Of a stretch of DNA of 35,574 bases, positions 1 to 34,132 are shown piece by piece. Every line of letters begins with the position of its first letter. Within the stretch, counting starts at the first letter, position 1. The notes beneath the pieces were generated by a model. The model saw only the letters and a program-made list of their open reading frames with translations. It did not search any database and had not been told where the DNA came from. Origin of the DNA: a virus (lineage: Duplodnaviria; Heunggongvirae; Uroviricota; Caudoviricetes); IMG/VR virus record IMGVR_UViG_2698536477_000007. One strand, written 5' to 3'. Position numbers and translations under genes: made by a program.

Positions 1-993
1 CTAATCGATGGACAGTTTATGGACACTTTCAGCCAGCGGATTAAAGCTGATTGCATCCTGTAAAAAGTCCGGCGAAAAATGCGCATACGTCATCGTTTGT
101 TGAATCGTGGCATGGCCCAGGATTCGTTGTAGCGTAACGATATTTCCGCCATTCATCATGAAATGTGTAGCGAATGTATGACGCATGACATGGGTGGCCT
201 GCCCTTTCGGTAAGTCCGGCTTCACCTCCTGAAGGATCTCCCGAAATCTGAGGTAATCAGCCTGGTACAACAATCCGGTTCTGCGGGTTTTAATTAACGC
301 AAGTACCGCATCAGAAACGGGAACGGCGCGAGATTTTCCGTTCTTGGTGTTAAAGAACATCACGCGGTTACCTACAATATGTTCCCCACGTAAACCAGCT
401 GCTTCACCCCACCTTGCCCCCGTGGAAAGACACAGAATGGCAACACGCCGCGCATCTCCATCGAGTCGTTCAAGCAGTCGTTCAATCTCCTCATCTGAAA
501 GAAAAGCCATCTCTGTGTTCCTGACTTTCAGCTTACGTATTCCCCGAACCGGGTTTTCGTTATGGAACACCTCACCCTCAATCAGCGAGCTGAACATTGC
601 AGACAAGGCACACAAATCGCGGTTAATGCTGGAAGGCATTAACCCGGCCTGTAATTTGTCGGACCGGTACCCGAGCATAAATTTTCGCGTCATCTGACTG
701 GCACGAGGATCACCCATCTCACGGTTTATCTTTTCCAGTCTGACCCTGTAGGTATCCCCGTAATCTTGGTTACGACCATCAAGCAACCACCAGGCCTCTA
801 TCAGTTCGGATAACCGACGCTGATCTGCTGGCTTAGCCTGCCATGGCTTATCATGAAAATTCTGCAAAACATACTTTTCAAACTCCTGCGCCTTTGACTT
901 CAGGGTAAAAATCTTACGAATCCGCTTTCCTTCCGTCCCTTGTGGCCTTACATCAACCTTATAACGTCCGTCTTTGAGTTGCTTAATCGACAT
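1..993 (-). CDS. int: Tyrosine integrase, P2 Int-like
   Basis: Translation MSIKQLKDGRYKVDVRP...ILCLSTGARWGEA...HVMRHTFATHF...LGHATIQQTMTYAH aligns from recall to P2 Int along its length; GGAGGGG ribosome-binding site 8 nt upstream of ATG at 993 (the 1008 start in the ORF track is a longer in-frame alternative). Confidence 0.9.
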   Translation of the reverse strand: MSIKQLKDGRYKVDVRPQGTEGKRIRKIFTLKSKAQEFEKYVLQNFHDKPWQAKPADQRRLSELIEAWWLLDGRNQDYGDTYRVRLEKINREMGDPRASQMTRKFMLGYRSDKLQAGLMPSSINRDLCALSAMFSSLIEGEVFHNENPVRGIRKLKVRNTEMAFLSDEEIERLLERLDGDARRVAILCLSTGARWGEAAGLRGEHIVGNRVMFFNTKNGKSRAVPVSDAVLALIKTRRTGLLYQADYLRFREILQEVKPDLPKGQATHVMRHTFATHFMMNGGNIVTLQRILGHATIQQTMTYAHFSPDFLQDAISFNPLAESVHKLSID

Positions 994-18305: not shown

Positions 18306-19451
18306 GTGAGCTGGCCGAATGTAACCGTAAGCCATCAGAACCGTTTCAACGGTGCCACCCGTGAAGTGGAGCGCACGCTGCTTTTTGTGGGCTATGGCAA
18401 AAAGAACACAGGTAACACCCTTTCCGTCTCCCCTGAGACCGACCTGGACGACGTGCTGGGACCGGATGAAAGCCTGCTTAAATCCACGCTTACCGCCGCA
18501 ATCGCCAACGGTGGCCAAAACTGGTTTGCCTATGTTCACGTTCTGTCTGAACCCAAACCCCCGACACCGGAGGGCGGCGACGCTAACGCCGCATGGGTGG
18601 ACGCGGTGAAAAAAGCGCAGACCATTGCTTCTGCCGAAGGCGTGGTGATTGCCATTGACATCACGGCTAAAGATGCCGTTAACCGCGCCACCGAAACCCG
18701 CGCCCTGCTTCAGTCCGCTTATGGCCGTTTTGTCTGGTTCATGCTGTGCGTGGCCGGACCGGGCAGGGATGAGGCATGGGCGGCATACGTCACCCGCATC
18801 AGTGCCATACAGGACGGCGTGGCAGCACCTGGCGTGATGGTGGTTCCCCGCTTATGGGGAAATGAGCCCGGCGTACTGGCGGGCCGTCTCTGTAATCCTT
18901 CTGTCACCGTTGCGGACAGCCCGGCACGCGTGGCAACCGGTGCTCTGGTGGCGATGGGTAACGATGAGATCCCGCAGGACGGCAAGAAACAGCCCCTTGA
19001 GCTGGCCACGCTACGCTCGCTGGAAGGCAAACGCTTCAGCGTGCCCATGTGGTATCACGATTTCGACGGGCTCTACTGGTCAGACGGACGCACCCTTGAT
19101 GTGGAGGGGGGCGATTACCAGGTCATCGAAAACGTGCGCGTGGTGGATAAGGTCTCCCGCCGTGTACGTCTGCGTGCCATTGCCCGCCTTGCGGATCGCG
19201 CGCTCAACAGCACACCGGGCAGCATTGCCGCCAGCCAGACATATTTCAGCCGCACGCTGCGTGAAATGGCGCTCGCCACAGAGATTAACGGCGTACCGTT
19301 CCCCGGCGAGGTTAAACCGCCACAGGACGGGGATATCACCATCGTCTGGACCAGCAGTACACACGTGCAGATTTACATTGTGGTACGCCCCTACGAGAGC
19401 GCAAAAGCCATTGGCGTAAGTATTGAACTCGACACAGCACTGGAGATCTGA
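18306..19451 (+). CDS. Tail sheath protein (non-P2-FI type), 381 aa
   Basis: GTG start with AAGGAG 8 nt upstream; large protein immediately preceding a tube-sized gene. Confidence 0.65.
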   Translation: MSWPNVTVSHQNRFNGATREVERTLLFVGYGKKNTGNTLSVSPETDLDDVLGPDESLLKSTLTAAIANGGQNWFAYVHVLSEPKPPTPEGGDANAAWVDAVKKAQTIASAEGVVIAIDITAKDAVNRATETRALLQSAYGRFVWFMLCVAGPGRDEAWAAYVTRISAIQDGVAAPGVMVVPRLWGNEPGVLAGRLCNPSVTVADSPARVATGALVAMGNDEIPQDGKKQPLELATLRSLEGKRFSVPMWYHDFDGLYWSDGRTLDVEGGDYQVIENVRVVDKVSRRVRLRAIARLADRALNSTPGSIAASQTYFSRTLREMALATEINGVPFPGEVKPPQDGDITIVWTSSTHVQIYIVVRPYESAKAIGVSIELDTALEI

Positions 19452-19452
19452 C

Positions 19453-19914
19453 ATGGCCGGAAATGAACGTATCAGCGGCGGCGCGTTTGATATCAACTAC
19501 GACGGGATCATGATCCACGTGGAAAGCGCCACCGTCACCATCACCGACAACAGCGCCGTGGCACAGACGCGCGGTGTGCCGAACGGCTACACCCGTGGTT
19601 CTGTTTCTGCCGATGTGGAGGTGGAAGTCGACGCGCAGAACTTTAAAAAGTTTGGTGCTGTGGCCCGCTCTGCGGGGTCGTGGCGTGCCATTCCTGAAAA
19701 GGATTTTCTCTTTTATGCCAACAACGGCAGCGAGGAGGAAAAAATCGAGGTATTCGGCTGCGTCCCCATGTTGTCGGACGTGGTGAACATCAGCGCAGGC
19801 GAAGCCGGAAAGACCACGAAAAAAATCAAGTTCATGGTCACAAGCCCGGACTTTATCAACATTGACGGCGTGCCCTACCTGTCAGCCCGTGACACCCGCG
19901 ATCTGAAGGGGTGA
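19453..19914 (+). CDS. Tail tube protein, 153 aa
   Basis: ATG 19453 two nt after sheath stop; size and position typical of a contractile-tail tube protein. Confidence 0.6.
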   Translation: MAGNERISGGAFDINYDGIMIHVESATVTITDNSAVAQTRGVPNGYTRGSVSADVEVEVDAQNFKKFGAVARSAGSWRAIPEKDFLFYANNGSEEEKIEVFGCVPMLSDVVNISAGEAGKTTKKIKFMVTSPDFINIDGVPYLSARDTRDLKG

Positions 19915-19918
19915 TGCC

Positions 19919-20224
19919 ATGCCGGACGGTCAGACTTCACTCCTGGCAAAACTGATTATCATCGGTGCTGCCATCGGGCTGGGGCGTCTCATGGTGAGCC
20001 GCGATCGCATCACAGCCCGTCTGCTTATCGGGCGAATGATTATGGGCTCTGCCGTGGCACCGGTTGCCGCCATTCCGCTGTTTAAATTTCCGGACATGCC
20101 GGAGCTGGTTGTGGTCGGTCTGGCGTGCGCGCTGGGCATTATGGGCAGCGCCTTTATTGAAGAATGCTTTTGCCGTCTGGCAGACCGCTACCTGAAGCAG
20201 AAGGAACGCAGAAATGACCCATAA
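19919..20224 (+). CDS. Putative holin, three transmembrane helices, 101 aa
   Basis: Three hydrophobic segments and a charged C-terminus (RLADRYLKQKERRNDP); in same operon as endolysin and spanins. Confidence 0.5.
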   Translation: MPDGQTSLLAKLIIIGAAIGLGRLMVSRDRITARLLIGRMIMGSAVAPVAAIPLFKFPDMPELVVVGLACALGIMGSAFIEECFCRLADRYLKQKERRNDP

Positions 20225-20966
20225 GCCTTACATTTCGCCTTCCCTGAGCCTGTATCACGCGCAGGCGCATGACGTTCTGCGGATGCTGCCGGAAAACAGT
20301 GTGGACGCGCTCATCACAGACCCGCCATACAGTTCAGGTGCCACACACAAGGCGGGGCGGACATGCCAGGGCAGCCACGCCAAATACATCAACGATGAAG
20401 ATCTTCACCGCTTTGAAGGCTTCGAAGGCGAGAACATGGACGCCCGTTCATGGGAATACTGGACGCATCTGTGGATGACACAGGCATGGCGCACGGTACG
20501 ACCCGGTGGTTACGCCCTGGTCTTCACCGACTGGCGGCAGTTGCCCGCGCTGACGGACGCATTCCAGGCCGCCGGCTTTACCTGGCGGGGGATCGTGGCA
20601 TGGAACAAGGGACGGGCCTCAAGAACACCGCATACCGGTTATTTTCGTCACCAGTGCGAATATGTGGTCTGGGGCAGTAAAGGCGCGCTGGGCAAATCCC
20701 CTTCCGGGCCGTTCGACGGCTGCACCACGCACCACACACGCCCACAGGAGAAACAGCACCCGACAGGTAAACCGGAATCGTTGATGGATGAGCTTGTGCG
20801 CGTGTGTGAACCCGGAGGGCTGATCCTCGATCCGTTTATGGGGTCCGGCACCACGGGCGTGGCCGCCCTTCGCCGGGGCTGCCGTTTTACGGGTATTGAA
20901 CTGAACGCCCACTATTTCAGCGTGGCACAGGCGCGCCTTACGGGGACGGAACAGAGGAGTGACTGA
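20214..20966 (+). CDS. Orphan beta-class DNA amino-methyltransferase (N6-adenine or N4-cytosine)
   Basis: Motif IV DPPY (ALITDPPYSSG) near the N-terminus and motif I LILDPFMGSGTTGVAA near the C-terminus, the beta-class order; no restriction endonuclease gene adjacent. Confidence 0.85.
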   Translation: MTHKPYISPSLSLYHAQAHDVLRMLPENSVDALITDPPYSSGATHKAGRTCQGSHAKYINDEDLHRFEGFEGENMDARSWEYWTHLWMTQAWRTVRPGGYALVFTDWRQLPALTDAFQAAGFTWRGIVAWNKGRASRTPHTGYFRHQCEYVVWGSKGALGKSPSGPFDGCTTHHTRPQEKQHPTGKPESLMDELVRVCEPGGLILDPFMGSGTTGVAALRRGCRFTGIELNAHYFSVAQARLTGTEQRSD

Positions 20967-21304
20967 TGAAACTGAGCGAAAAACAACAGCTGTTTGCCGT
21001 CATGATTGCCGACCTTATTCACTGGGCGCAGGAGCACGGCTATCGCCTGACCTTCGGTGAGGCATACCGCACGCCGGAGCAGGCAGCACTAAATGCGAAA
21101 ACCGGAAAAGGCATCCGCAACAGCCTTCACACCCTGCGCCTCGCGGTGGACTTCAACCTGTTTATTAACGGCGAATACCAGACCGACACCGACGCCTACA
21201 GGCCGCTGGGGGAATACTGGGAATCCATCGGCGGCACATGGGGCGGGCGCTTCAGTCGGGCGGACGGCAATCATTTCAGCCTTGAGCACAACGGGATGAA
21301 ATGA
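20966..21304 (+). CDS. Endolysin, peptidase M15 (Zn-dependent peptidoglycan peptidase) family
   Basis: 112 aa; H-x6-D motif (SLHTLRLAVDF) and downstream DGNHFSLEH histidines as in M15 peptidases; ATGA overlap with methyltransferase stop. Confidence 0.8.
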   Translation: MKLSEKQQLFAVMIADLIHWAQEHGYRLTFGEAYRTPEQAALNAKTGKGIRNSLHTLRLAVDFNLFINGEYQTDTDAYRPLGEYWESIGGTWGGRFSRADGNHFSLEHNGMK

Positions 21305-21687
21305 TGAAACAGCTGGCGGGCTGCCTGGTGCTCCTCTTTGCCGCCATGTGGGCGGGCTGGCTGGCCCATGACTGGCATGACGCCAGGGTGGCGCTTGCCG
21401 AACAGGAAGCCATGGAAGCCACGCGACGTGCGGTGACAGAAGCCGGGCAGCAGTCCGCCCGCATACTGGAAAAACGGCTGGAGGCGTTAAAGGGCAATGA
21501 AATTCACACTGAACGCGTTATTCACACGGAAACCGTCCGCCCGGTATTCCGCAATGTGTGCGCTACTGATGATTACGTCCGGCTGTTCAACGCCCGTGCT
21601 GAAGCCGCTGAGCGTACCCTGGCAGGAAAACCAGCTGACGGAATGCCCGAAGACACTGCCGAGACTGGCAGGCCCGACGGGCGCTGA
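21301..21687 (+). CDS. i-spanin (Rz-like)
   Basis: N-terminal transmembrane helix (LAGCLVLLFAAMWAGWLA) followed by charged coiled-coil-like region; directly downstream of endolysin. Confidence 0.7.
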   Translation: MMKQLAGCLVLLFAAMWAGWLAHDWHDARVALAEQEAMEATRRAVTEAGQQSARILEKRLEALKGNEIHTERVIHTETVRPVFRNVCATDDYVRLFNARAEAAERTLAGKPADGMPEDTAETGRPDGR

Positions 21688-21790
21688 TTTTGATGCGGCA
21701 CTGCGAACCCTCACGAGCCGCTACACCGAATGTGCCGCCAGGCATAACAGCCTGGTGGAAACCATACGAAACACGGAGAAACTGCAATGA
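21497..21790 (+). CDS. o-spanin (Rz1-like outer-membrane lipoprotein), +1 frame overlapping i-spanin
   Basis: Lipobox MITSGC followed by Pro-rich mature region; overlaps 3' end of i-spanin and extends past it; start 21497 or internal 21554. Confidence 0.65.
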   Translation: MKFTLNALFTRKPSARYSAMCALLMITSGCSTPVLKPLSVPWQENQLTECPKTLPRLAGPTGADFDAALRTLTSRYTECAARHNSLVETIRNTEKLQ

Positions 21791-22062
21791 CCACGAAGAA
21801 CACCGGCACCATCATCCTGTCCGTTGCGGGCGTAACCCTGAGCTTTGAACCGAACAAAACGGCATTTAACAACCTCATCAACGAAATCACGATGACCAAC
21901 AAGGTGGCGCCGATGAGCACCTATCTTAACCGCATCGTGACGCCTGCCAGCCGCGACGCACTGGCTGACCTGATTGCGCGTTATCCGGGCTGTGAGATGC
22001 AGATCGTCGAGAAGATTAACGAGGTTTACTCCCCGAAACTGGAGATTGAGTTAAAAAACTGA
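21787..22062 (+). CDS. Tail assembly chaperone (short product, P2 E-like role)
   Basis: 91-aa ORF immediately upstream of tape measure gene, ends at slippery heptamer. Confidence 0.7.
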   Translation: MTTKNTGTIILSVAGVTLSFEPNKTAFNNLINEITMTNKVAPMSTYLNRIVTPASRDALADLIARYPGCEMQIVEKINEVYSPKLEIELKN

Positions 22063-22250
22063 CCGCGCGGGTCGAAAGCATCCGCCGCAATCCCCTTGAG
22101 CAGTATCTGGCATTGCGGCGTCACTACCTCCCCGGAGAGCCGGACGACGAAGAGAGCATCGCCCGGGCCATCTGGCTGGATGAATATTTTGCCCGTACCC
22201 GCGCCAACAAGACCGCTGAAGGTATAGCGATCGCATTTAACGGAAGGTGA
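21787..22250 (+). other. Tail assembly chaperone long form made by programmed -1 ribosomal frameshift at A AAA AAC (22053-22059)
   Basis: Zero-frame codons tta-aaa-aac-tga; -1 frame is open from the slip site for 63 codons to TGA 22248-22250, has no start codon and is closed just upstream by TGA 22047-22049; ends 1 nt before tape measure ATG. Confidence 0.65.
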
Positions 22251-22251
22251 C

Positions 22252-24438
22252 ATGGCCAGCCAGCTGGATTTCATTATCAATCTGACAGACCAGCTTACCC
22301 GCCCGCTGCGGCAGGTTCAGGAATCCGTGACGGGATTCGCCGAACGCTCGCAGGGCGCGTTCGCGCGTATCGGTGTGGGTGTGGCCGGACTGTGGGGTGT
22401 GGCTGAAGGTATCCGCGCCGCAATGGATCCGGCGTGGGAGATGCAGAAGGCGCTGAGCGAGCTTGAGGCCAAAGGCGTCGGAGCGCAGGCGCTGACCGCC
22501 CTCACCACGCAGGCCATGAAACTGGGGACCGCATTCGGTCAGTCTTCCACGGAGATCATCCGTTCCGCATGGCATATTCGCGGCGCACTGGACGGGCTGA
22601 GCGACGGGGATTTACCCCGTGTGACGGCAGCAACCAGTACCCTGGCCGTGGCTGCCCGCGTCAGCAGTGAAGAGGCGAGTACTTACCTTGCCGCCATGGG
22701 TGCCCGTTTCCGCAGTGAGTTTTCTGCCATGGGTGCCGTGGGTTTTGCTGAAGATCTGGCTGGTAAAACCGCGTGGATGGTTCAGCAGTTCGGCGTGGAA
22801 ATGAGCACCATGCAGGAGCTTATTGAGGGCACCAAAAACGCTGGCGCGGATTTTGGCGTCAGCATGGCAGAGCAGTTTGCCATACTGGGCACCCTGTCAC
22901 GGACCATGGGCACCGAGGCATCAGGCATCTATGAGGAGTTCCTGCGCAGTGCCCCCGCTGCCGCACAAAAAATGGGGATGAGTTTCGTCGATGCCACCGG
23001 GAAGATTTTACCCATGGGTGACATCCTCGACCGTCTGCAGGCGAGGTTCGGCAGGAACATTGAGGGTAACGTGGCGGCACAACAGGCGCTGGATGACGCC
23101 TTCGGCAGTGGCGCGGACGTGATTAAAAAACTCTGGGGACAGCAGGAAATGCTTAACCGGAGCATATCAGCGCTGGGGCGTAATGACGGCATGAAGCGTG
23201 CCACGGAAATGGCGGAAGCCATGACCGACCCGTGGGACCGCCTTGTGGCCTCCTTCTACAACATCCGGGCCGCCATCGGTAACGCCCTCTACCCCATTCT
23301 CGCACCACTGGCTGGCCGTTTTGCCGATATCGGCGCGACGTTCGTGCGCTGGCTGAACATGTTCCCGAACATCGCCCGCTGGCTGGGTTACATCACGCTG
23401 ACCATGCTGGCGCTGGGCGCAGCCGGTGCGGTCACGAACATCGTGCTGGGTGTGTTCAGCTTCATCATGGAAGGCCATAAGGCCATCATAAAGGGCGCCA
23501 GGGCCGCCTGGAGTCTGTACACGCTTGCACTCACAAAAGTACGCAGCGTCATCATTGCCACCAGTCTTGCCGCGCGTCTGGCGGGCGTGTCGTTTCTGAC
23601 CATGAGCGCCCCGGTCCTCCTGGTTGCCGCCGCCATCGCCGCTCTGGTGGTGGTGGCCATTAAGTTCTGGCAGCCCGTCAAAGCCTTTATTCGCGGCTTT
23701 ATTGATGGTTTTACCGGCGCACTGGACGCCATGAGCCCGGTGACTGCCGCGTTCGGCGACATTGCCCGTGCGCTGACCCCGGTATGGCAGGGCATAAAAA
23801 CCCTGTTCGGTGCCTTCTCCGATCTGTTTGCACCGGTACAGCTGACCACGGGACAGATGAACAGCGTCACCCGTGCCGGAGAAACATGCGGTCGCGTGGT
23901 GGCCGCAGCGGTAAGCCTGATATCCCCCGCGCTGGAGGTGGTTATCAGCGTGATCAGAACCCTGGTCGACATCTTCGCCATCGTCATCAGAGGGTGGCAG
24001 GACGTGGTGGCTGCATTTGACCCGACTGCCCCGGTCGAATCCTTCCGGAAAATGGCGGGGATCATCGGTAACGTCTTCGGGGACTTATGGAACGTCATTA
24101 AAAACTCGTTTAACCGGACGTGGAACTGGCTTGCGGAAAAGCTGAACAAAATCCCTGGTATCAGTATCGACATGAAGCCCACGGAGCAGGTGAACACCAT
24201 GACGCGGGGCGCAACAGGCAGCACCGTACCTCCGCAGATTGCAGAAACCGCCGTCCCGACACTGGCAGGCAACCGCATCAGCGCAGAGCTGCCACCCGGA
24301 GGCATACGCAACCAGATACGCACGGACACCTCAACCCGTATCGACAACAGCCGGACGTTCGGCAATCTGACAATCAACACGCAGAACCCGATGACGCCGG
24401 GGCAACTGGATGAATGGACGGAGCTTTACGCGGGATGA
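22252..24438 (+). CDS. Tail tape measure protein
   Basis: 728 aa, Ala/Gly-rich with hydrophobic central segment; follows the frameshifted chaperone pair. Confidence 0.85.
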   Translation: MASQLDFIINLTDQLTRPLRQVQESVTGFAERSQGAFARIGVGVAGLWGVAEGIRAAMDPAWEMQKALSELEAKGVGAQALTALTTQAMKLGTAFGQSSTEIIRSAWHIRGALDGLSDGDLPRVTAATSTLAVAARVSSEEASTYLAAMGARFRSEFSAMGAVGFAEDLAGKTAWMVQQFGVEMSTMQELIEGTKNAGADFGVSMAEQFAILGTLSRTMGTEASGIYEEFLRSAPAAAQKMGMSFVDATGKILPMGDILDRLQARFGRNIEGNVAAQQALDDAFGSGADVIKKLWGQQEMLNRSISALGRNDGMKRATEMAEAMTDPWDRLVASFYNIRAAIGNALYPILAPLAGRFADIGATFVRWLNMFPNIARWLGYITLTMLALGAAGAVTNIVLGVFSFIMEGHKAIIKGARAAWSLYTLALTKVRSVIIATSLAARLAGVSFLTMSAPVLLVAAAIAALVVVAIKFWQPVKAFIRGFIDGFTGALDAMSPVTAAFGDIARALTPVWQGIKTLFGAFSDLFAPVQLTTGQMNSVTRAGETCGRVVAAAVSLISPALEVVISVIRTLVDIFAIVIRGWQDVVAAFDPTAPVESFRKMAGIIGNVFGDLWNVIKNSFNRTWNWLAEKLNKIPGISIDMKPTEQVNTMTRGATGSTVPPQIAETAVPTLAGNRISAELPPGGIRNQIRTDTSTRIDNSRTFGNLTINTQNPMTPGQLDEWTELYAG

Positions 24439-30420: not shown

Positions 30421-32094
30421 ATGAACCCCACTAAACGTCTGTTACTGGGTAACGACACCATTCAGCTGGTCAGTTGTTCCGTCATGCTTGAGCTGAACGC
30501 GTGCGGACGCGGATTTATCACGGCCAGAACAGAGCAGAACTACACCGGGCGCCCCGTTCGTCTCGATATCGGATACGGAAACGACCTGGTGCGCTGGTTT
30601 ACCGGATACGTTGAACGCAGCCAGCCCGCTGAAAACGGCTCGGTGCGGCTTCTGATTCGTGAAATGGCGGGGATCCTTGATCACCCCTTCCCCTGTTCAT
30701 TTCAGCACCCGACAATGCGCACGGTCACACAGTGGCTGAGTGAGGCCAGCGGGCTGGAAATCATCCTGCCGGACAACGCGGCTTACACTGACAGACCCGT
30801 TCCGCATTTCACACACAGCGGCACGGGCTACGAACTGCTGGCCAGTCTGGGGCGTATTTTCTCCGTACCGGATTACATCTGGCATCCGTTACCGGACGGC
30901 GGCATTATGGCCGCTGCTGCCGCGCAGGGGATGTTTTCCGGTCGCCCCGTCACCATCCCGCACGAGTTCAGCCAGGCATCAACGGGCGGGCACAGTATGA
31001 CCCTCCCGATGATTCAGACGCTGCGACCGGGTGTGGAGGTGAACGGTCAGCGCCTGACGATGGTCATGCTGGAAGATGACAACATGACCATCACGTGGAC
31101 ACCGCGCAATAAAGCCACCGGCGCTCCCCTCCAGAAGTCCCCTTTCCGTCGCCAGGCTGAAAAGGCCTTCCCTGAGCTGGCATCAGGGCTTCACCTGCCC
31201 AAACTGGCACGTGTTGAGGCACCGACCGAAGCCGTCAGCGCGGGCAATATTGCCGACCCGTTCAGACCCCGCTACGCGGTGAATCTCCAGCTGCTTGACG
31301 AGAACGGCAACCCGGCAGCAGATACGCCCGTCTATAACGCCGTTCCCCTCCCCGTTCCCATGGCGGGCAGTGAGTCCGGCATGTTCCAGTTCCCGCCACC
31401 CGGAACCCTGGTGGAAGTGGGATTTGTGGAAGGCCGGGCGGATAAGCCCTTCATCCGCCAGATAATGGCAGAGGGCCACAATCTGCCCGACGTGAAGCCG
31501 GGCGAGCAGTTGCAGCAACAGCGCGACGGCGTATCGCAGCGCGTGACGGTCGCCGGAGACTGGGAGCGCCAGACAGACCAGCGGATACAGGAGACATCAC
31601 GCGAGCGCGTGGTGAGTGCAGACGAGGAAAAGCGGAGCCTGACCAGCCGGGAGACCACCATACAGGCAACCGACACAACCACCGTCCTGGGCGTATCCAC
31701 GCTTCAGGCTGGCGCGGTCACCCATATCACTGAAGAGAACTACAGCATCAGCACGGGCGGGCACATGATGGTGGTTGCCGGTACCTGTGAGCGCGACGTG
31801 GAAGGCGACACCCAGGACACCGTGGGCGGCAGCCTTACCGAAAAGATTAAGGGCGTCCGTCACAGTATTGCGCTGGCGCAGAAGCTGGTTGGCGATACGG
31901 TGAAGCTGGGAAACGAGGGCATTAATGTACTGACCATGCTGACGGACCTTGCCGATGTGGTGGAAGAGCTGGCCGATATTACAGCATCACATACCCACCC
32001 AAAAACGGGCACGTCTCCGCAGGCCGCACAGTTCAGCCAGGTCGCTCAGGAGTGCCGCCAGCTTAAAAATAAATATTCACCAATAATCGAATAA
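30421..32094 (+). CDS. Baseplate hub/spike protein (gpD-like N-terminus with gp5/VgrG-type fold segment)
   Basis: 557 aa; ...FPPPGTLVEVGFVEGRADKPFI... resembles the conserved gpV/VgrG spike motif; last gene of tail operon. Confidence 0.6.
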   Translation: MNPTKRLLLGNDTIQLVSCSVMLELNACGRGFITARTEQNYTGRPVRLDIGYGNDLVRWFTGYVERSQPAENGSVRLLIREMAGILDHPFPCSFQHPTMRTVTQWLSEASGLEIILPDNAAYTDRPVPHFTHSGTGYELLASLGRIFSVPDYIWHPLPDGGIMAAAAAQGMFSGRPVTIPHEFSQASTGGHSMTLPMIQTLRPGVEVNGQRLTMVMLEDDNMTITWTPRNKATGAPLQKSPFRRQAEKAFPELASGLHLPKLARVEAPTEAVSAGNIADPFRPRYAVNLQLLDENGNPAADTPVYNAVPLPVPMAGSESGMFQFPPPGTLVEVGFVEGRADKPFIRQIMAEGHNLPDVKPGEQLQQQRDGVSQRVTVAGDWERQTDQRIQETSRERVVSADEEKRSLTSRETTIQATDTTTVLGVSTLQAGAVTHITEENYSISTGGHMMVVAGTCERDVEGDTQDTVGGSLTEKIKGVRHSIALAQKLVGDTVKLGNEGINVLTMLTDLADVVEELADITASHTHPKTGTSPQAAQFSQVAQECRQLKNKYSPIIE

Positions 32095-32790: not shown

Positions 32791-32955
32791 TAAAAGGTAA
32801 ATTACGCGCGGGTGCCTTTCGGCTGACGGCTGGAAGGAATACCTGAAGGCCGGATGTGAAAAGGCCCCGAGTCAACTAACGTTAACCCGAGGCCCTGACA
32901 CTTCCTACCTGACAAGTGGAAGGTTAGCGCCTCCCTGTAAAAGGAGTCAAGCGCT

Positions 32956-33096
32956 ATGCCGCAAAAAACGATCATAGTGAGCATTTTATGCATAACTATT
33001 TTGATGATTGTCTGGATGATACACACGTCACCGTGTGAGTTCAGGCTTAACATCATGTGGTCAGAATTTGCGGCGTTCTTGCAGTGTAAACAGTAA
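32956..33096 (+). CDS. hok: Hok-family type I toxin peptide, copy 1 (46 aa)
   Basis: MPQKTIIVSILCITILMIVWMIHTSPCEFRLNIMWSEFAAFLQCKQ: single transmembrane helix, conserved LCIT, C-E and E-x-AAF spacing of Hok/Gef; AAGGAG ribosome-binding site 10 nt upstream. Confidence 0.75.
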   Translation: MPQKTIIVSILCITILMIVWMIHTSPCEFRLNIMWSEFAAFLQCKQ

Positions 33097-33185
33097 GAAA
33101 CCGCAGCGGGGGTGAAAGCCCCCGCTATCCGGTTGCCGGGTTCGGCTGATATGGCACCCTTTTGGGTTAGCGTACTGACTTCATT

Positions 33186-33210
33186 GCCCGCAATATGCGG
33201 GCTTTTTTTT
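33186..33210 (+). terminator. Rho-independent terminator at end of hok unit 1
   Basis: GCCCGCA-ATA-TGCGGGC followed by T8. Confidence 0.6.
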
Positions 33211-33427
33211 GCCGTCTCCCCTCAACAGCTTCAATACTGAGCATTGCGCACACAAAGGGAAATCAGTAAATTACATGCGGGTGCCTTTCGGCTGACGACT
33301 GGAAGGAATACCTGAAGGCCGGATGTGGAAAGGCCCCGGAGTCAACTTTAATGTTAACCCGAGGCCCTGACCATCTACCCTAAGCAAGTGGAAGGTTAGC
33401 GCCTCCCTGTAAAAGGAGTCAAGCGCT

Positions 33428-33568
33428 ATGCCGCAAAAAACGATCATAGTGAGCATTTTATGCATAACTATTTTGATGATTGTCTGGATGATACACAACT
33501 CACCGTGTGAGTTCAGGCTTAACATCATGTGGTCAGAATTTGCGGCGTTCTTGCAGTGTAAACAGTAA
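33428..33568 (+). CDS. hok: Hok-family type I toxin peptide, copy 2 (46 aa)
   Basis: Identical to copy 1 except T24N (MIHNSPCEF). Confidence 0.75.
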   Translation: MPQKTIIVSILCITILMIVWMIHNSPCEFRLNIMWSEFAAFLQCKQ

Positions 33569-33658
33569 GAAACCGCAGCGGGGGTGAAAGCCCCCCGCTA
33601 TCCGGTTGCCGGGTTCGGCTGATATGGCACCCTTTTGGGTTAGCGTACTGACTTCATT

Positions 33659-33683
33659 GCCCGCAATATGCGGGCTTTTTTTT
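33659..33683 (+). terminator. Rho-independent terminator at end of hok unit 2
   Basis: Same hairpin and T8 run as unit 1. Confidence 0.6.
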
Positions 33684-33900
33684 GCCGTCTCCCCTCAACA
33701 GCTTCAATACTGAGCATTGCGCACACAAAGGGAAATCAGTAAATTACATGCGGGTGCCTTTCGGCTGACGGCTGGAAGGAATACCTGAAGGCCGGATGTG
33801 GAAAGGCCCCGAGTAAAACATTTGTTTAACCCGAGGCCTAACCCTTCCTACCCTAGACAAGTGGAAGGTTAGCGCCTCCCTGTAAAAGGAGTCAAGCGCT

Positions 33901-34041
33901 ATGCCGCAAAAAACGATCATCGTGAGCATTTTATGCTTAACCATGTTGTTGACCGTCTGGATGATACACCGTTCTCCGTGTGAGTTCAGACTTAACATCA
34001 TGTGGTCAGAATTTGCGGCGTTCTTGCAGTGTAAACCGTAA
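33901..34041 (+). CDS. hok: Hok-family type I toxin peptide, copy 3 (46 aa, diverged)
   Basis: MPQKTIIVSILCLTMLLTVWMIHRSPCEFRLNIMWSEFAAFLQCKP; several substitutions relative to copies 1 and 2. Confidence 0.7.
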   Translation: MPQKTIIVSILCLTMLLTVWMIHRSPCEFRLNIMWSEFAAFLQCKP

Positions 34042-34132
34042 GAAACCGCAGCGGGGGTGAAAGCCCCCGCTATCCGGTTGCCAAAGGTTCGGTCGAAAGT
34101 CGCACCCTCACACAAAAGTCACAAAGAAAAAC

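What the first reader, a model, noticed from the sequence alone, without database searches (positions are those of the whole stretch)
22043..22250. Programmed -1 frameshift producing a long-form tail assembly chaperone
The chaperone ORF ends with tta-aaa-aac-tga, containing the classic slippery heptamer A AAA AAC. The -1 frame is closed by a stop just upstream, has no start codon, and stays open for exactly 63 codons to a stop 1 nt before the tape measure start. This is the arrangement seen for lambda G/GT and P2 E/E+E' chaperones.
Basis: partly seen in the sequence, partly recalled or inferred. Interest (0 to 1): 0.4.

Follow-up and report, generated by a model that had tools for sequence, protein, structure and literature searches.

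The report
Tail chaperone frameshift in HP1-like prophage
An E. coli prophage almost certainly makes a short and a long tail-assembly chaperone from one gene by a programmed -1 frameshift, a well-known phage trick that databases have missed in this phage family, where they label the extension an unknown small protein.

Summary
The 91-codon chaperone gene (21787-22062, Pfam Phage_TAC_10) ends TTA-AAA-AAC-TGA. The in-phase heptamer A_AAA_AAC is at 22053-22059. The -1 frame is closed by TGA at 22047-49 and then runs 63 codons past the slip, to a TGA 1 nt before the tape-measure ATG (22252).

Across 78 diverged HP1-like phages and prophages, and 70 further viral contigs, every locus has A_AAA_AAN at this position. 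All but one have the 0-frame stop immediately after it. The -1 peptide evolves like a protein, and no start codon is conserved in it. Synonymous sites within the heptamer are frozen.

No RNA stimulator is conserved, and the window's own downstream fold is not significant. No record I inspected annotates the slippage. RefSeq calls a truncated 45-aa "DUF6890 family protein" from a TTG, and Pfam and PHROGs list the extension as unknown function.

The pair works like lambda G/GT and P2 E/E+E' but shows no detectable sequence homology to P2 E/E' (compared directly) and matches no other Pfam family, lambda's included.

Verdict: an ordinary, real feature and a new member of a known kind. The invariant adjacent stop is the only mildly unusual aspect. 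Interest is low to moderate.

The parts
21787..22062 (+). Short-form tail assembly chaperone gene ('G-like'), 91 aa, 10.1 kDa. Its ATG overlaps the stop of the upstream o-spanin-like ORF (ATGA).
   Evidence: ORF and translation. Pfam Phage_TAC_10 E = 9e-31; phrog_1214. Mass.
22047..22049 (+). TGA in the -1 frame. Together with the 0-frame stop it confines any frame change to the 10 nt 22050-22059 (GTTAAAAAAC).
22053..22059 (+). Slippery heptamer A_AAA_AAC in the X_XXY_YYZ phase; the proposed -1 shift site.
   Evidence: The heptamer A_AAA_AAN is invariant in 78/78 diverged loci and 70/70 viral contigs. The synonymous sites within it are frozen.
22060..22062 (+). 0-frame stop TGA immediately 3' of the heptamer. 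Its position is conserved but its identity is not (TAA, TGA or TAG in relatives).
   Evidence: The single exception is L067.
22059..22250 (+). -1-frame extension ('T-like' domain): 63 codons plus TGA at 22248-50, 7.3 kDa. Conserved motif L.LRR.YLP....D...LARAIWLD.
   Evidence: Pfam DUF6890 E = 4e-21; phrog_7050. Protein-like codon-position divergence.
21787..22250 (+). Predicted long form: join(21787..22059, 22059..22250), 154 aa, 17.4 kDa, junction ...LEIELKN|LTARVESIR.... The junction would read ...LKK|LTAR if the shift precedes Asn decoding or occurs in the mRNA.
   Evidence: tblastn of this fusion matches 67 phage records, each in two frames.
22113..22250 (+). RefSeq/PGAP stand-alone call 'DUF6890 family protein' (45 aa, TTG start). 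Most likely a gene-calling artefact that truncates the extension.
   Evidence: There is no SD upstream of the TTG and no conserved start codon in relatives.
22252..24438 (+). Tail tape measure protein gene, 728 aa, starting 1 nt after the extension's stop.
   Evidence: Pfam PhageMin_Tail; annotation in relatives.
22041..22044 (+). GGAG, a Shine-Dalgarno-like 4-mer 8 nt upstream of the heptamer. A possible minor stimulator in this phage, but not conserved.
   Evidence: only 8 of 76 loci have any SD-like 4-mer in the 20 nt upstream.
22084..22119 (+). Predicted stem-loop 24 nt downstream of the heptamer. It is not significant and not conserved, so probably not a stimulator.
   Evidence: z = -1.05, 26 of 200 shuffles fold at least as well. 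(51% of cells paired, equal to the shuffled mean).
18306..19914 (+). Context: tail sheath (18306-19451, DUF2586) and tail tube (19453-19914, HP1 Orf24 family). The lysis cassette and a DNA methyltransferase (19919-21790) lie between the tube gene and the chaperone gene.

Best explanation
The window is an HP1-like (Peduoviridae) prophage of E. coli. Ribosomes translating the 91-codon tail assembly chaperone gene mostly terminate at TGA 22060-62 and release the short form.

A minority slip back one nucleotide on A_AAA_AAC (22053-22059). They then read CTG-ACC-GCG... in the -1 frame for 63 more codons, to TGA 22248-50. This gives a 154-aa long form that contains the whole short form plus a C-terminal 'T-like' domain, which is what Pfam calls DUF6890.

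By analogy with lambda G/GT and P2 E/E+E', the shared N-terminal part would coat the tape measure protein. The extension would recruit the tail tube protein. The fixed low ratio of long to short form would be needed for tail assembly, and neither protein would end up in the virion.

Shown here: the anatomy, the coding status of the -1 frame, the absence of an independent start, and the nucleotide-level constraint on the heptamer and the adjacent stop.

Inferred: that the shift is ribosomal, its efficiency (probably a few per cent), and the functions of the two domains.
For: (1) Identity and position. The gene matches Phage_TAC_10 at E = 9e-31 and sits directly upstream of the tape measure, in a sheath-tube-lysis-chaperone-tape measure module shared with HP1, K139, phiO18P and SI7.

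(2) The -1 region codes for protein. Codon-position divergence across 12 phages is 0.41/0.34/0.64, the same pattern as the chaperone gene at 0.44/0.37/0.65. The other two frames hold 1-8 stops each. The region matches Pfam DUF6890 and phrog_7050.

(3) There is no independent start. Start-like codons fall at codons 4 to 39 in different phages. In two phages the first one lies after the most conserved motif, and conservation starts at the first codon after the slip.

(4) The slip site is conserved.
- A_AAA_AAC or A_AAA_AAA followed by a stop is present in 12/12 phages and 65/65 genuine genome loci that have the adjacent stop.
- A_AAA_AAG sits at the homologous position in the one exception, L067.
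- 70/70 viral contigs carry the heptamer and adjacent stop.
- The search pattern used to find these loci lies 17-26 codons downstream, so the sampling did not depend on the heptamer.

(5) Synonymous sites are frozen.
- The preceding codon always ends in A (GTA 54, ATA 14, CTA 8, TTA 1; 77/77). Elsewhere in the gene, 19% of third positions are A and ATA makes up 3% of Ile codons.
- Lys is always AAA (77/77, against 65% elsewhere).
- Asn is always AAC (71/71, against 54% elsewhere).

(6) In the window, stops in the two frames confine the shift to 10 nt that consist essentially of the heptamer.

(7) No in-frame fusions exist, and all database homologues of the extension are 45-62-aa ORF calls. 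The arrangement is therefore always split across two frames.

(8) The literature establishes low-level G-T frameshifting as widely conserved in long-tailed phages, including P2 relatives, and records that A_AAA_AAC is far less shift-prone than A_AAA_AAG in E. coli. That fits a low ratio (PMC5009743).
Against: - No fusion protein, ribosome-profiling or reporter data exist for this phage or, as far as the held library shows, for any HP1-like phage.
- The window has no significant downstream RNA structure (z = -1.05) and no conserved one. Only a non-conserved GGAG lies upstream. Efficiency may therefore be low.
- A_AAA_AAC is a weak site in E. coli (PMC5009743).
- An adjacent stop lowered -1 frameshifting in a bacterial test system (PMC4373837).
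- The chaperone function of Phage_TAC_10 rests on synteny. The fold search did not hit a solved chaperone. Hits among viral models were weak, though enriched in proteins named 'tail assembly chaperone'.
Confidence: 0.82

Rival explanations
1. Transcriptional slippage. RNA polymerase adds one extra A in the A6 run. A fraction of mRNAs then carries the chaperone and the extension in one frame, and ordinary translation makes the same long form (junction ...LKK|LTAR).
For: The site is a homopolymer: A6 in the window and A7 in 6 of 77 loci. One inserted A would give the required frame. Sequence alone cannot exclude it. The frozen A at the wobble of the preceding codon would also fit selection for run length.
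Against: - Efficient slippage by bacterial RNA polymerase is documented for runs of 9 A or T, matching the 9-10-bp hybrid (PMC5009743). In 147 loci the run never exceeds 7.
- Position 7 is constrained to C, A or G and is never T, and the stop is always adjacent. Neither matters for polymerase slippage.
- No upstream nascent-RNA hairpin is enriched (control window -60..0, mean z = -0.05).
- Downstream structure is enriched in many relatives, which is the usual ribosomal stimulator position.
Confidence: 0.08
2. Independent small gene. The -1 ORF is translated on its own, from TTG 22113 as RefSeq annotates or by reinitiation after the TGA, giving a free 45-aa DUF6890 protein and no fusion.
For: PGAP and several GenBank records annotate a small stand-alone ORF here. 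Pfam and PHROGs built families from such calls.
Against: - No start codon is conserved. Positions range from codon 4 to codon 39, and in two phages the first candidate lies after the LRRHYLP motif.
- No SD precedes TTG 22113.
- The 17 codons upstream of that TTG are conserved as protein from the first codon after the slip.
- This model does not explain the frozen heptamer or the exact abutment of the two frames.
Confidence: 0.04
3. There is no functional long form. The heptamer simply reflects conserved C-terminal residues (V/L/I-K-N), and the downstream conserved ORF is used in some other way.
For: The C-terminal residues [VLI]-K-[NK] are conserved as amino acids, which by itself keeps part of the A-run.
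Against: Amino-acid conservation does not explain the synonymous choices: wobble A 77/77, AAA 77/77 and AAC 71/71. It also fails to explain the conserved -1 ORF without a start, or the exception L067, which keeps a heptamer (A_AAA_AAG) while changing the residue and moving the stop.
Confidence: 0.03

Closest known systems
Bacteriophage P2 E / E+E' (FETUD operon; Christie et al. 2002, cited in PMC5009743 and PMC3091744)
   Same: - Both belong to the virus family Peduoviridae, with contractile tails.
- The short form is 91 aa in both.
- A -1 extension of about 50-60 codons lacks its own start and ends at or overlapping the tape-measure start.
- In both, the Pfam model of the extension starts about 19 residues after the slip.
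   Different: - No sequence similarity is detectable. P2 E is Phage_TAC_7 and E' is Phage_P2_GpE, and hhalign gives a probability of about 0.1% against each half.
- P2 slips on T_TTT_TTG, 6 sense codons before the stop. Here the site is A_AAA_AAC with the stop immediately adjacent.
- In P2 the chaperone gene directly follows the tube gene. Here a lysis cassette and a methyltransferase intervene.
- P2's frameshift is demonstrated experimentally and annotated as a join. This one is neither.
Bacteriophage lambda G / GT (Levin et al. 1993; Xu et al. 2004, 2013, 2014, as summarised in PMC5009743)
   Same: Two products are made from one start through a low-level -1 shift near the end of the gene just upstream of the tape measure. 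No strong RNA stimulator is required. The expected roles are that the shared domain binds the tape measure and the extension binds the tube protein.
   Different: - Lambda is a siphovirus, and no Pfam family is shared.
- Lambda's heptamer G_GGA_AAG lies 5 sense codons before the G stop.
- Lambda's T extension is much longer (the annotated T CDS is 435 nt) than the 63 codons here.
Natural -1 frameshift sites with a stop codon directly after the heptamer (Rous sarcoma virus, barley yellow dwarf virus; PMC4373837)
   Same: The heptamer is followed immediately by the 0-frame stop, so termination and slippage can compete at the same ribosomal state.
   Different: Those are eukaryotic RNA viruses with strong downstream pseudoknots or long-range structures. 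Here the host is bacterial and no conserved structure exists. The role of the stop is untested here.
E. coli dnaX and IS-element A_AAA_AAG sites
   Same: An A-rich heptamer decoded by tRNA-Lys in the P site. The exception L067 uses exactly A_AAA_AAG.
   Different: dnaX has an upstream SD-like element and a downstream stem-loop and shifts at about 50%. The window has AAC as its last codon, which is much less shift-prone in E. coli (PMC5009743), and it has no conserved SD or stem-loop.

Membership tests
G/GT-type tail assembly chaperone frameshift pair (criteria of Xu et al. 2004, as described in PMC3091744 and PMC5009743) | Two ORFs lie between the major tail (tube) gene and the tape measure gene | tested here: met
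   The chaperone is at 21787-22062, the extension at 22059-22250 and the tape measure at 22252. The tube gene is at 19453-19914, with the lysis cassette in between, as in all HP1-like relatives.
G/GT-type tail assembly chaperone frameshift pair (criteria of Xu et al. 2004, as described in PMC3091744 and PMC5009743) | The second ORF overlaps the end of the first in another frame and lacks its own initiation site | tested here: met
   The second ORF is in the -1 frame. It has no ATG or GTG, only TTG at codon 18 with no SD. No start codon is conserved in 12 phages.
G/GT-type tail assembly chaperone frameshift pair (criteria of Xu et al. 2004, as described in PMC3091744 and PMC5009743) | An in-phase slippery sequence lies within the overlap and is conserved in relatives | tested here: met
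   A_AAA_AAC at 22053-59. The heptamer A_AAA_AAN is present in 78/78 loci plus 70/70 viral contigs, and the synonymous sites are frozen.
G/GT-type tail assembly chaperone frameshift pair (criteria of Xu et al. 2004, as described in PMC3091744 and PMC5009743) | A fusion protein sharing the N terminus of the short form is actually made, at a low fixed ratio | not testable with these tools
   This needs a western blot, mass spectrometry or a reporter assay. No such data were found in the library.
G/GT-type tail assembly chaperone frameshift pair (criteria of Xu et al. 2004, as described in PMC3091744 and PMC5009743) | Both forms are required for tail assembly and absent from virions | not testable with these tools
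   Genetic and biochemical experiments only.
Pfam Phage_TAC_10 (PF10963) | Score above the family's gathering threshold over the full model | tested here: met
   106.3 bits against a cut-off of 25.7; model positions 2-82 of 82.
Pfam DUF6890 (PF21830) / phrog_7050 | Score above threshold over the full model | tested here: met
   75 bits against a cut-off of 23.6; model positions 1-44 of 44, which start at residue 19 of the extension. phrog_7050 E = 4e-25, starting at residue 16.
P2 E / E+E' (Pfam Phage_TAC_7 + Phage_P2_GpE) | Sequence homology of either half | tested here: not met
   No Pfam hit even at E <= 10. hhalign probability is 0.1% for both halves. The pair is therefore analogous to P2 E/E+E', not a member of that family.
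P2 E / E+E' (Pfam Phage_TAC_7 + Phage_P2_GpE) | T_TTT_TTG slip site several codons before the stop | tested here: not met
   The window has A_AAA_AAC with the stop adjacent. In P2 the stop is 6 codons later.
Lambda G / T families | Sequence homology of either half | tested here: not met
   A Pfam scan of the fusion at E <= 10 returns only Phage_TAC_10 and DUF6890.
Tail assembly chaperone fold | Structural similarity to a solved or confidently annotated chaperone | tested here: inconclusive

The most novel reading that the evidence does not exclude
The HP1-type chaperones may define a distinct bacterial design of -1 frameshift signal.

- It would pair a weak heptamer (A_AAA_AAC or A_AAA_AAA) with an obligatorily adjacent stop codon of any identity.
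- The heptamer tRNAs would sit in the E and P sites with the stop in the A site, so that release-factor binding competes with late slippage.
- The long:short ratio would then be set by termination kinetics, and so tied to host release-factor activity or growth state, rather than by an RNA structure.
- The single exception, which combines the strong A_AAA_AAG heptamer with a stop 16 codons away, would be the alternative solution to the same problem.
Probability: 0.2. Interest if true: 0.5.

Novelty: new member of a known kind. Interest (0 to 1): 0.3.

Why it matters
Practically, it corrects annotation.

- In every record I inspected, the long chaperone form is missing. That covers one RefSeq E. 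coli prophage and eleven phage genomes, including HP1, K139, phiO18P, F108 and SI7.
- The extension is either left blank or called as a truncated 'hypothetical' or 'DUF6890 family' protein.
- Pfam DUF6890 and phrog_7050, both labelled 'unknown function', can be reinterpreted as the frameshift-encoded C-terminal domain of the HP1-type tail assembly chaperone.

Scientifically, it adds a well-sampled family to the conserved G/GT phenomenon. The family has an unusually rigid signal: the same heptamer and an adjacent stop from Pasteurellaceae to Vibrionaceae to Enterobacteriaceae. It also has one informative natural variant. That makes it a convenient system for asking whether a stop codon next to a -1 site tunes frameshift efficiency in bacteria. 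It does not change what is known about how phage tails are built.

Tried and rejected
- **Conserved downstream RNA stimulator.** RNAalifold on 12 sequences predicted zero consensus pairs. The window's 60-nt fold gave z = -1.05. The window's distal helix, tested on 71 sequences, was 51% paired, no better than shuffles. I rejected it for the window. I did keep the observation that clade-specific hairpins are enriched family-wide.
- **Upstream SD-like stimulator.** Present in the window (GGAG, 8 nt upstream) but in only 8 of 76 loci. Not a family feature.
- **Natural in-frame fusions.** None among the 50 closest proteins, and none among representatives of 1.84 billion proteins.
- **The 800-aa hit P0056.** It is a repetitive protein and probably a spurious match.
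- **Homology to P2 E/E' and lambda G/T.** Not detectable.
- **Solved-structure relatives by sequence.** Only E = 0.06 to 3FGX.
- **Structure of the full fusion.** The single-sequence AF2 model had pLDDT 52.9 and was unusable.
- **First attempt at a genome scan.** The scan with the chaperone alignment failed because no block was conserved enough. The alignment of the extension worked.
- **Literature.** Christie et al. 2002 is not held. Searches for DUF6890, PF10963, and HP1 or K139 plus frameshift found nothing. I could not verify whether HP1 was already listed in Xu et al. 2004 or Christie et al. 2002.
- **My own recollection.** I recalled that an adjacent stop stimulates -1 shifting in E. coli. 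The text of PMC4373837 says it decreased shifting, so I do not claim stimulation.
Full report
**1. What is in the sequence**

The + strand ORF 21787-22062 encodes 91 aa and ends tta-aaa-aac-tga. AAAAAAC occupies 22053-22059 in the phase A_AAA_AAC, and TGA follows at 22060-62.

In the -1 frame there is a TGA at 22047-49. The frame is then open over 22050-22247, which is 66 codons, or 63 counted from the codon CTG that re-uses C22059. It stops at TGA 22248-50, and the next gene's ATG is at 22252.

The two stops confine any change of frame to the 10 nt GTTAAAAAAC.

There is no ATG or GTG, but there is a TTG at 22113, 18 codons after the slip.

**2. What the genes are**

- The 91-aa protein matches Pfam Phage_TAC_10 ("phage tail assembly chaperone", 106 bits, E = 9e-31).
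- The 63-aa -1 peptide matches Pfam DUF6890 (75 bits, E = 4e-21).
- The next gene is a tape measure protein (PhageMin_Tail).
- Upstream lie a sheath (DUF2586), a tube (HP1 Orf24 family), a holin, a DNA methyltransferase, an M15 endolysin and an Rz/Rz1-like spanin pair.

The rest of the window is a nearly complete P2/HP1-like prophage. It has an integrase, repressor, Cox, gpA, portal, terminase, scaffold, P2-type capsid, gpL/R/S, baseplate J/I and tail fibre. Host serS lies at the right end.

The query stretch 21700-22400 is 100% identical to a prophage in E. coli O22:H8 strain 154 and present in 12 of 5,426 complete E. coli genomes. The nearest isolated phages are Salmonella SI7, SW3 and SW5 at about 75% nucleotide identity. 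More distant are Aeromonas phiO18P and Escherichia ESSI2_ev239 at about 66%.

**3. How it is annotated elsewhere**

RefSeq annotates the chaperone, and separately a 45-aa "DUF6890 family protein" that starts at the TTG. I looked at eleven phage records: SI7, phiO18P, ev239, HP1, YenM_324, K139, F108, PV94, SMHB1, Vibrio 1.202.O and ValB1MD-2. None carries a joined (slippage) feature. The ~190-nt interval is either blank or holds a short "hypothetical protein".

For contrast, the P2 record annotates E+E' as a join with a marked -1 site.

**4. Is the -1 region translated as a protein?**

Across the window and eleven phages, down to about 31% identity in the fused protein, the mean pairwise nucleotide difference by codon position in the -1 frame is 0.41/0.34/0.64. 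That is the same pattern as the chaperone gene itself (0.44/0.37/0.65). The other two frames carry 1-8 stops in every sequence.

The peptide aligns without gaps and has a strong motif, L.LRR.YLP....D...LARAIWLD. Conservation begins at the very first codon after the slip: L-T-x-R-V-x-x-I-E.

**5. Could it start on its own?**

No start codon is conserved. The first ATG, GTG or TTG in the -1 ORF lies at codon 4, 12, 15, 18, 37 or 39, depending on the phage. In Yersinia YenM_324 and Salinivibrio SMHB1 it lies after the LRRHYLP motif. The window's TTG has no Shine-Dalgarno sequence.

The Pfam and PHROG models of the extension begin at residues 19 and 16. All database homologues are ORF calls of 45-62 aa. 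This pattern is expected if gene callers truncate a frameshift extension at the first available start. The Pfam model for P2's E' has the same 19-residue offset.

**6. Conservation of the slip site**

A tblastn of the predicted 154-aa fusion hit 67 phage records. Every one matched in two pieces, in different frames, covering at least 80% of the query.

In all 12 sequences examined in detail, the chaperone ORF ends [A_AAA_AAC or A_AAA_AAA][stop].

I then scanned one genome per species, using a peptide pattern that lies 17-26 codons downstream of the slip, so the sampling did not depend on the heptamer. That scan gave 67 loci, from Enterobacteriaceae, Yersiniaceae, Morganellaceae, Aeromonadaceae, Pasteurellaceae, Vibrionaceae, Shewanella and others.

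- 63 loci have AAAAAAC and 2 have AAAAAAA, each followed at once by a stop.
- One locus (L079, Polyangia) is a spurious partial hit.
- One locus (L067, an Oceanospirillum MAG) has gtA_AAA_AAG at the homologous position, with the 0-frame stop 16 codons further on. Its -1 reading gives ...AVKK|AQQYADTCRRNGYDGLIALRRHYLP..., which is clearly homologous.

A further 70 distinct viral contigs all have AAAAAAC plus a stop. That set was not de-duplicated against the first set and is biased toward close relatives.

**7. Nucleotide-level constraint**

These counts are from 77 distinct loci.

- The codon before the Lys codon is GTA (54), ATA (14), CTA (8) or TTA (1). It encodes three different amino acids, but its third base is always A. 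Elsewhere in the same genes only 19% of third positions are A, GTA is 14% of Val codons and ATA is 3% of Ile codons.
- Lys is AAA in 77/77 (65% elsewhere).
- Asn is AAC in 71/71 (54% elsewhere). AAT never occurs, although it would be synonymous in both frames.
- The stop codon varies (TAA 34, TGA 26, TAG 17) while its position does not.

In the 77-column alignment around the site, 14 columns are invariant. Seven of those are the six A's and the T of the stop. This constraint acts on the RNA or DNA signal, not on the protein.

**8. Stimulatory elements**

No consensus structure is predicted downstream. The window's own 60 nt fold no better than shuffles (z = -1.05; 26 of 200 shuffles fold as well). 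Its distal helix (22084-91 paired with 22112-19) is not maintained in relatives (51% of cells paired, equal to the shuffled mean).

Family-wide, however, the 60 nt after the heptamer are more structured than three control windows. Mean z is -1.34, against +0.33, +0.18 and -0.05. The fraction with z <= -2 is 34%, against 3-5%. The Wilcoxon p-values of 1e-8 to 1e-10 are inflated by relatedness between the sequences.

The helices differ by clade:
- an 8-bp stem starting 8 nt after the heptamer in the ev239/Enterobacter clade;
- a 13-bp stem about 24 nt after it in Pasteurellaceae;
- stems 2-7 nt after it in the A_AAA_AAA Vibrio and Salinivibrio phages.

Some lineages therefore probably have their own stimulators, but the window's lineage shows none.

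A GGAG lies 8 nt upstream of the heptamer in the window. Only 8 of 76 loci have any such element.

**9. Mechanism**

The best-supported reading is ribosomal -1 slippage on A_AAA_AAC. Most ribosomes terminate at the adjacent TGA and make the 10.1-kDa short form. A minority continue in the -1 frame and make a 17.4-kDa long form.

The frozen first A of the heptamer is what a P-site (or E-site) tRNA-Lys needs in order to re-pair after moving back one base. This favours slippage of two tRNAs over slippage of tRNA-Asn alone.

A_AAA_AAC is much less shift-prone than A_AAA_AAG in E. coli (PMC5009743). That suits a low long:short ratio, such as lambda's ~1:30; the same review reports 2-3-fold higher efficiency for P2 and its relatives.

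The role of the adjacent stop is open.
- In a bacterial test system, placing a stop after the HIV heptamer lowered frameshifting, and RF2 over-expression abolished it. That shows the following codon can be in the A site before slippage.
- In Rous sarcoma virus the stop's identity did not matter (PMC4373837).

So the adjacency may tune the ratio through competition between termination and slippage. It may instead provide a pause, or it may only reflect that the short form must end at the domain boundary. L067 shows that adjacency is not obligatory.

**10. Rivals**

*Transcriptional slippage* cannot be excluded from sequence. It is disfavoured for four reasons: the run is only 6-7 A, whereas efficient slippage by bacterial RNA polymerase is documented for 9 (PMC5009743); the run never lengthens in 147 loci; position 7 and the stop are constrained; and no upstream hairpin is enriched.

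*Independent initiation* is contradicted by sections 4 and 5.

*A purely protein-level explanation of the A-run* is contradicted by section 7.

**11. Comparison with known systems**

The differences are as follows.

| System | Slip site | Sense codons between heptamer and 0-frame stop | Source |
|---|---|---|---|
| Lambda G/GT | G_GGA_AAG | 5 | |
| P2 E/E+E' | T_TTT_TTG | 6 | |
| This family | A_AAA_AAC or A_AAA_AAA | 0 | |

- Neither half shows detectable sequence similarity to P2 E (Phage_TAC_7) or E' (Phage_P2_GpE), or matches any Pfam family other than Phage_TAC_10 and DUF6890, lambda's included.
- A lysis cassette separates the tube gene from the chaperone gene.

**12. Novelty and verdict**

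Frameshift-coupled tail chaperones are textbook. The review literature says the arrangement is conserved in P2 relatives. I could not read Christie 2002 or Xu 2004, so I could not check whether HP1 itself was listed.

This report adds four things:
- a firm comparative demonstration for the HP1-type family and for this prophage;
- the reinterpretation of DUF6890 and phrog_7050 as the frameshift extension;
- the finding that the heptamer-plus-adjacent-stop signal is essentially invariant across the family;
- one natural A_AAA_AAG variant that lacks the adjacent stop.

It is a real and ordinary feature: a new member of a known kind, of modest interest.

Noticed in passing
window 32797-34082: A ~473-nt unit is repeated in tandem about three times (94-97% identity), between the right end of the prophage and host serS. 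In the RefSeq copy each unit carries a 'Hok/Gef family protein' gene, so these are three tandem type I toxin loci.
   Followed up: partly
L067 1183-1237 (Oceanospirillum MAG JAKZRG010000019.1): This is the only genuine homologue without an adjacent stop. It has gtA_AAA_AAG at the homologous position, and the 0 frame continues for 16 more codons. This suggests a trade-off between heptamer strength and stop adjacency, but it rests on one locus.
   Followed up: partly
window 22059 (position 7 of the heptamer) and homologous positions in 77 loci: Position 7 is C (71 loci) or A (6), and G in L067. It is never T, although AAT/TTG would be synonymous in both frames. I have no explanation.
   Followed up: no
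L004, L008, L009, L010, L012 and relatives, the 60 nt after the heptamer: Clade-specific stable hairpins (z from -2 to -4.8) lie downstream of the slip site at different offsets. They are enriched family-wide against control windows but absent from the window's own clade.
   Followed up: partly
Pfam PF21830 (DUF6890), phrog_7050 and Pfam PF06528 (Phage_P2_GpE): All three database models of frameshift extensions begin 16-19 residues after the slip site. They appear to have been built from ORF calls truncated at the first internal start codon.
   Followed up: partly
window 18306-19451 versus L001 608-1752: RefSeq flags the sheath gene of strain 154 as a frameshifted pseudogene (1145 nt). An ungapped comparison of L001 with the window loses register upstream of the matched stretch, which points to an indel there. 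The window's copy is an intact 381-codon ORF with a GTG start and an AAGGAG Shine-Dalgarno sequence.
   Followed up: partly
window 20214-20966: A DNA methyltransferase gene sits inside the lysis cassette, between the holin and the endolysin. Aeromonas phiO18P has the same arrangement. Salmonella SI7, HP1 and K139 do not.
   Followed up: no
window 21497-21790 and 21787: An Rz1/LysC-like ORF (weak Pfam hit, E = 9.5e-4) starts inside the Rz-like gene (21301-21687) in another frame and runs past its end. Its stop overlaps the chaperone ATG (ATGA), which suggests translational coupling of the lysis and tail genes.
   Followed up: no
P0056 (800 aa, representative library): A long repetitive protein matched the 63-aa extension in three stretches (E = 1.9e-5). 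It is probably a compositional or repeat artefact, not a relative.
   Followed up: partly
window 344-697 (+): This ORF has an in-phase A_AAT_TTT 3 codons before its stop and a 39-codon -1 ORF. It lies antisense within the integrase gene (1-1008, - strand) and has no Pfam hit, so I regard it as chance.
   Followed up: partly
window 30421-32094: A 557-aa ORF follows the HP1_ORF34 baseplate gene. Its only hit is a weak one to the Phage_base_V OB domain (E = 0.0024). It is possibly the spike or central hub, and is annotated as hypothetical in RefSeq.
   Followed up: no
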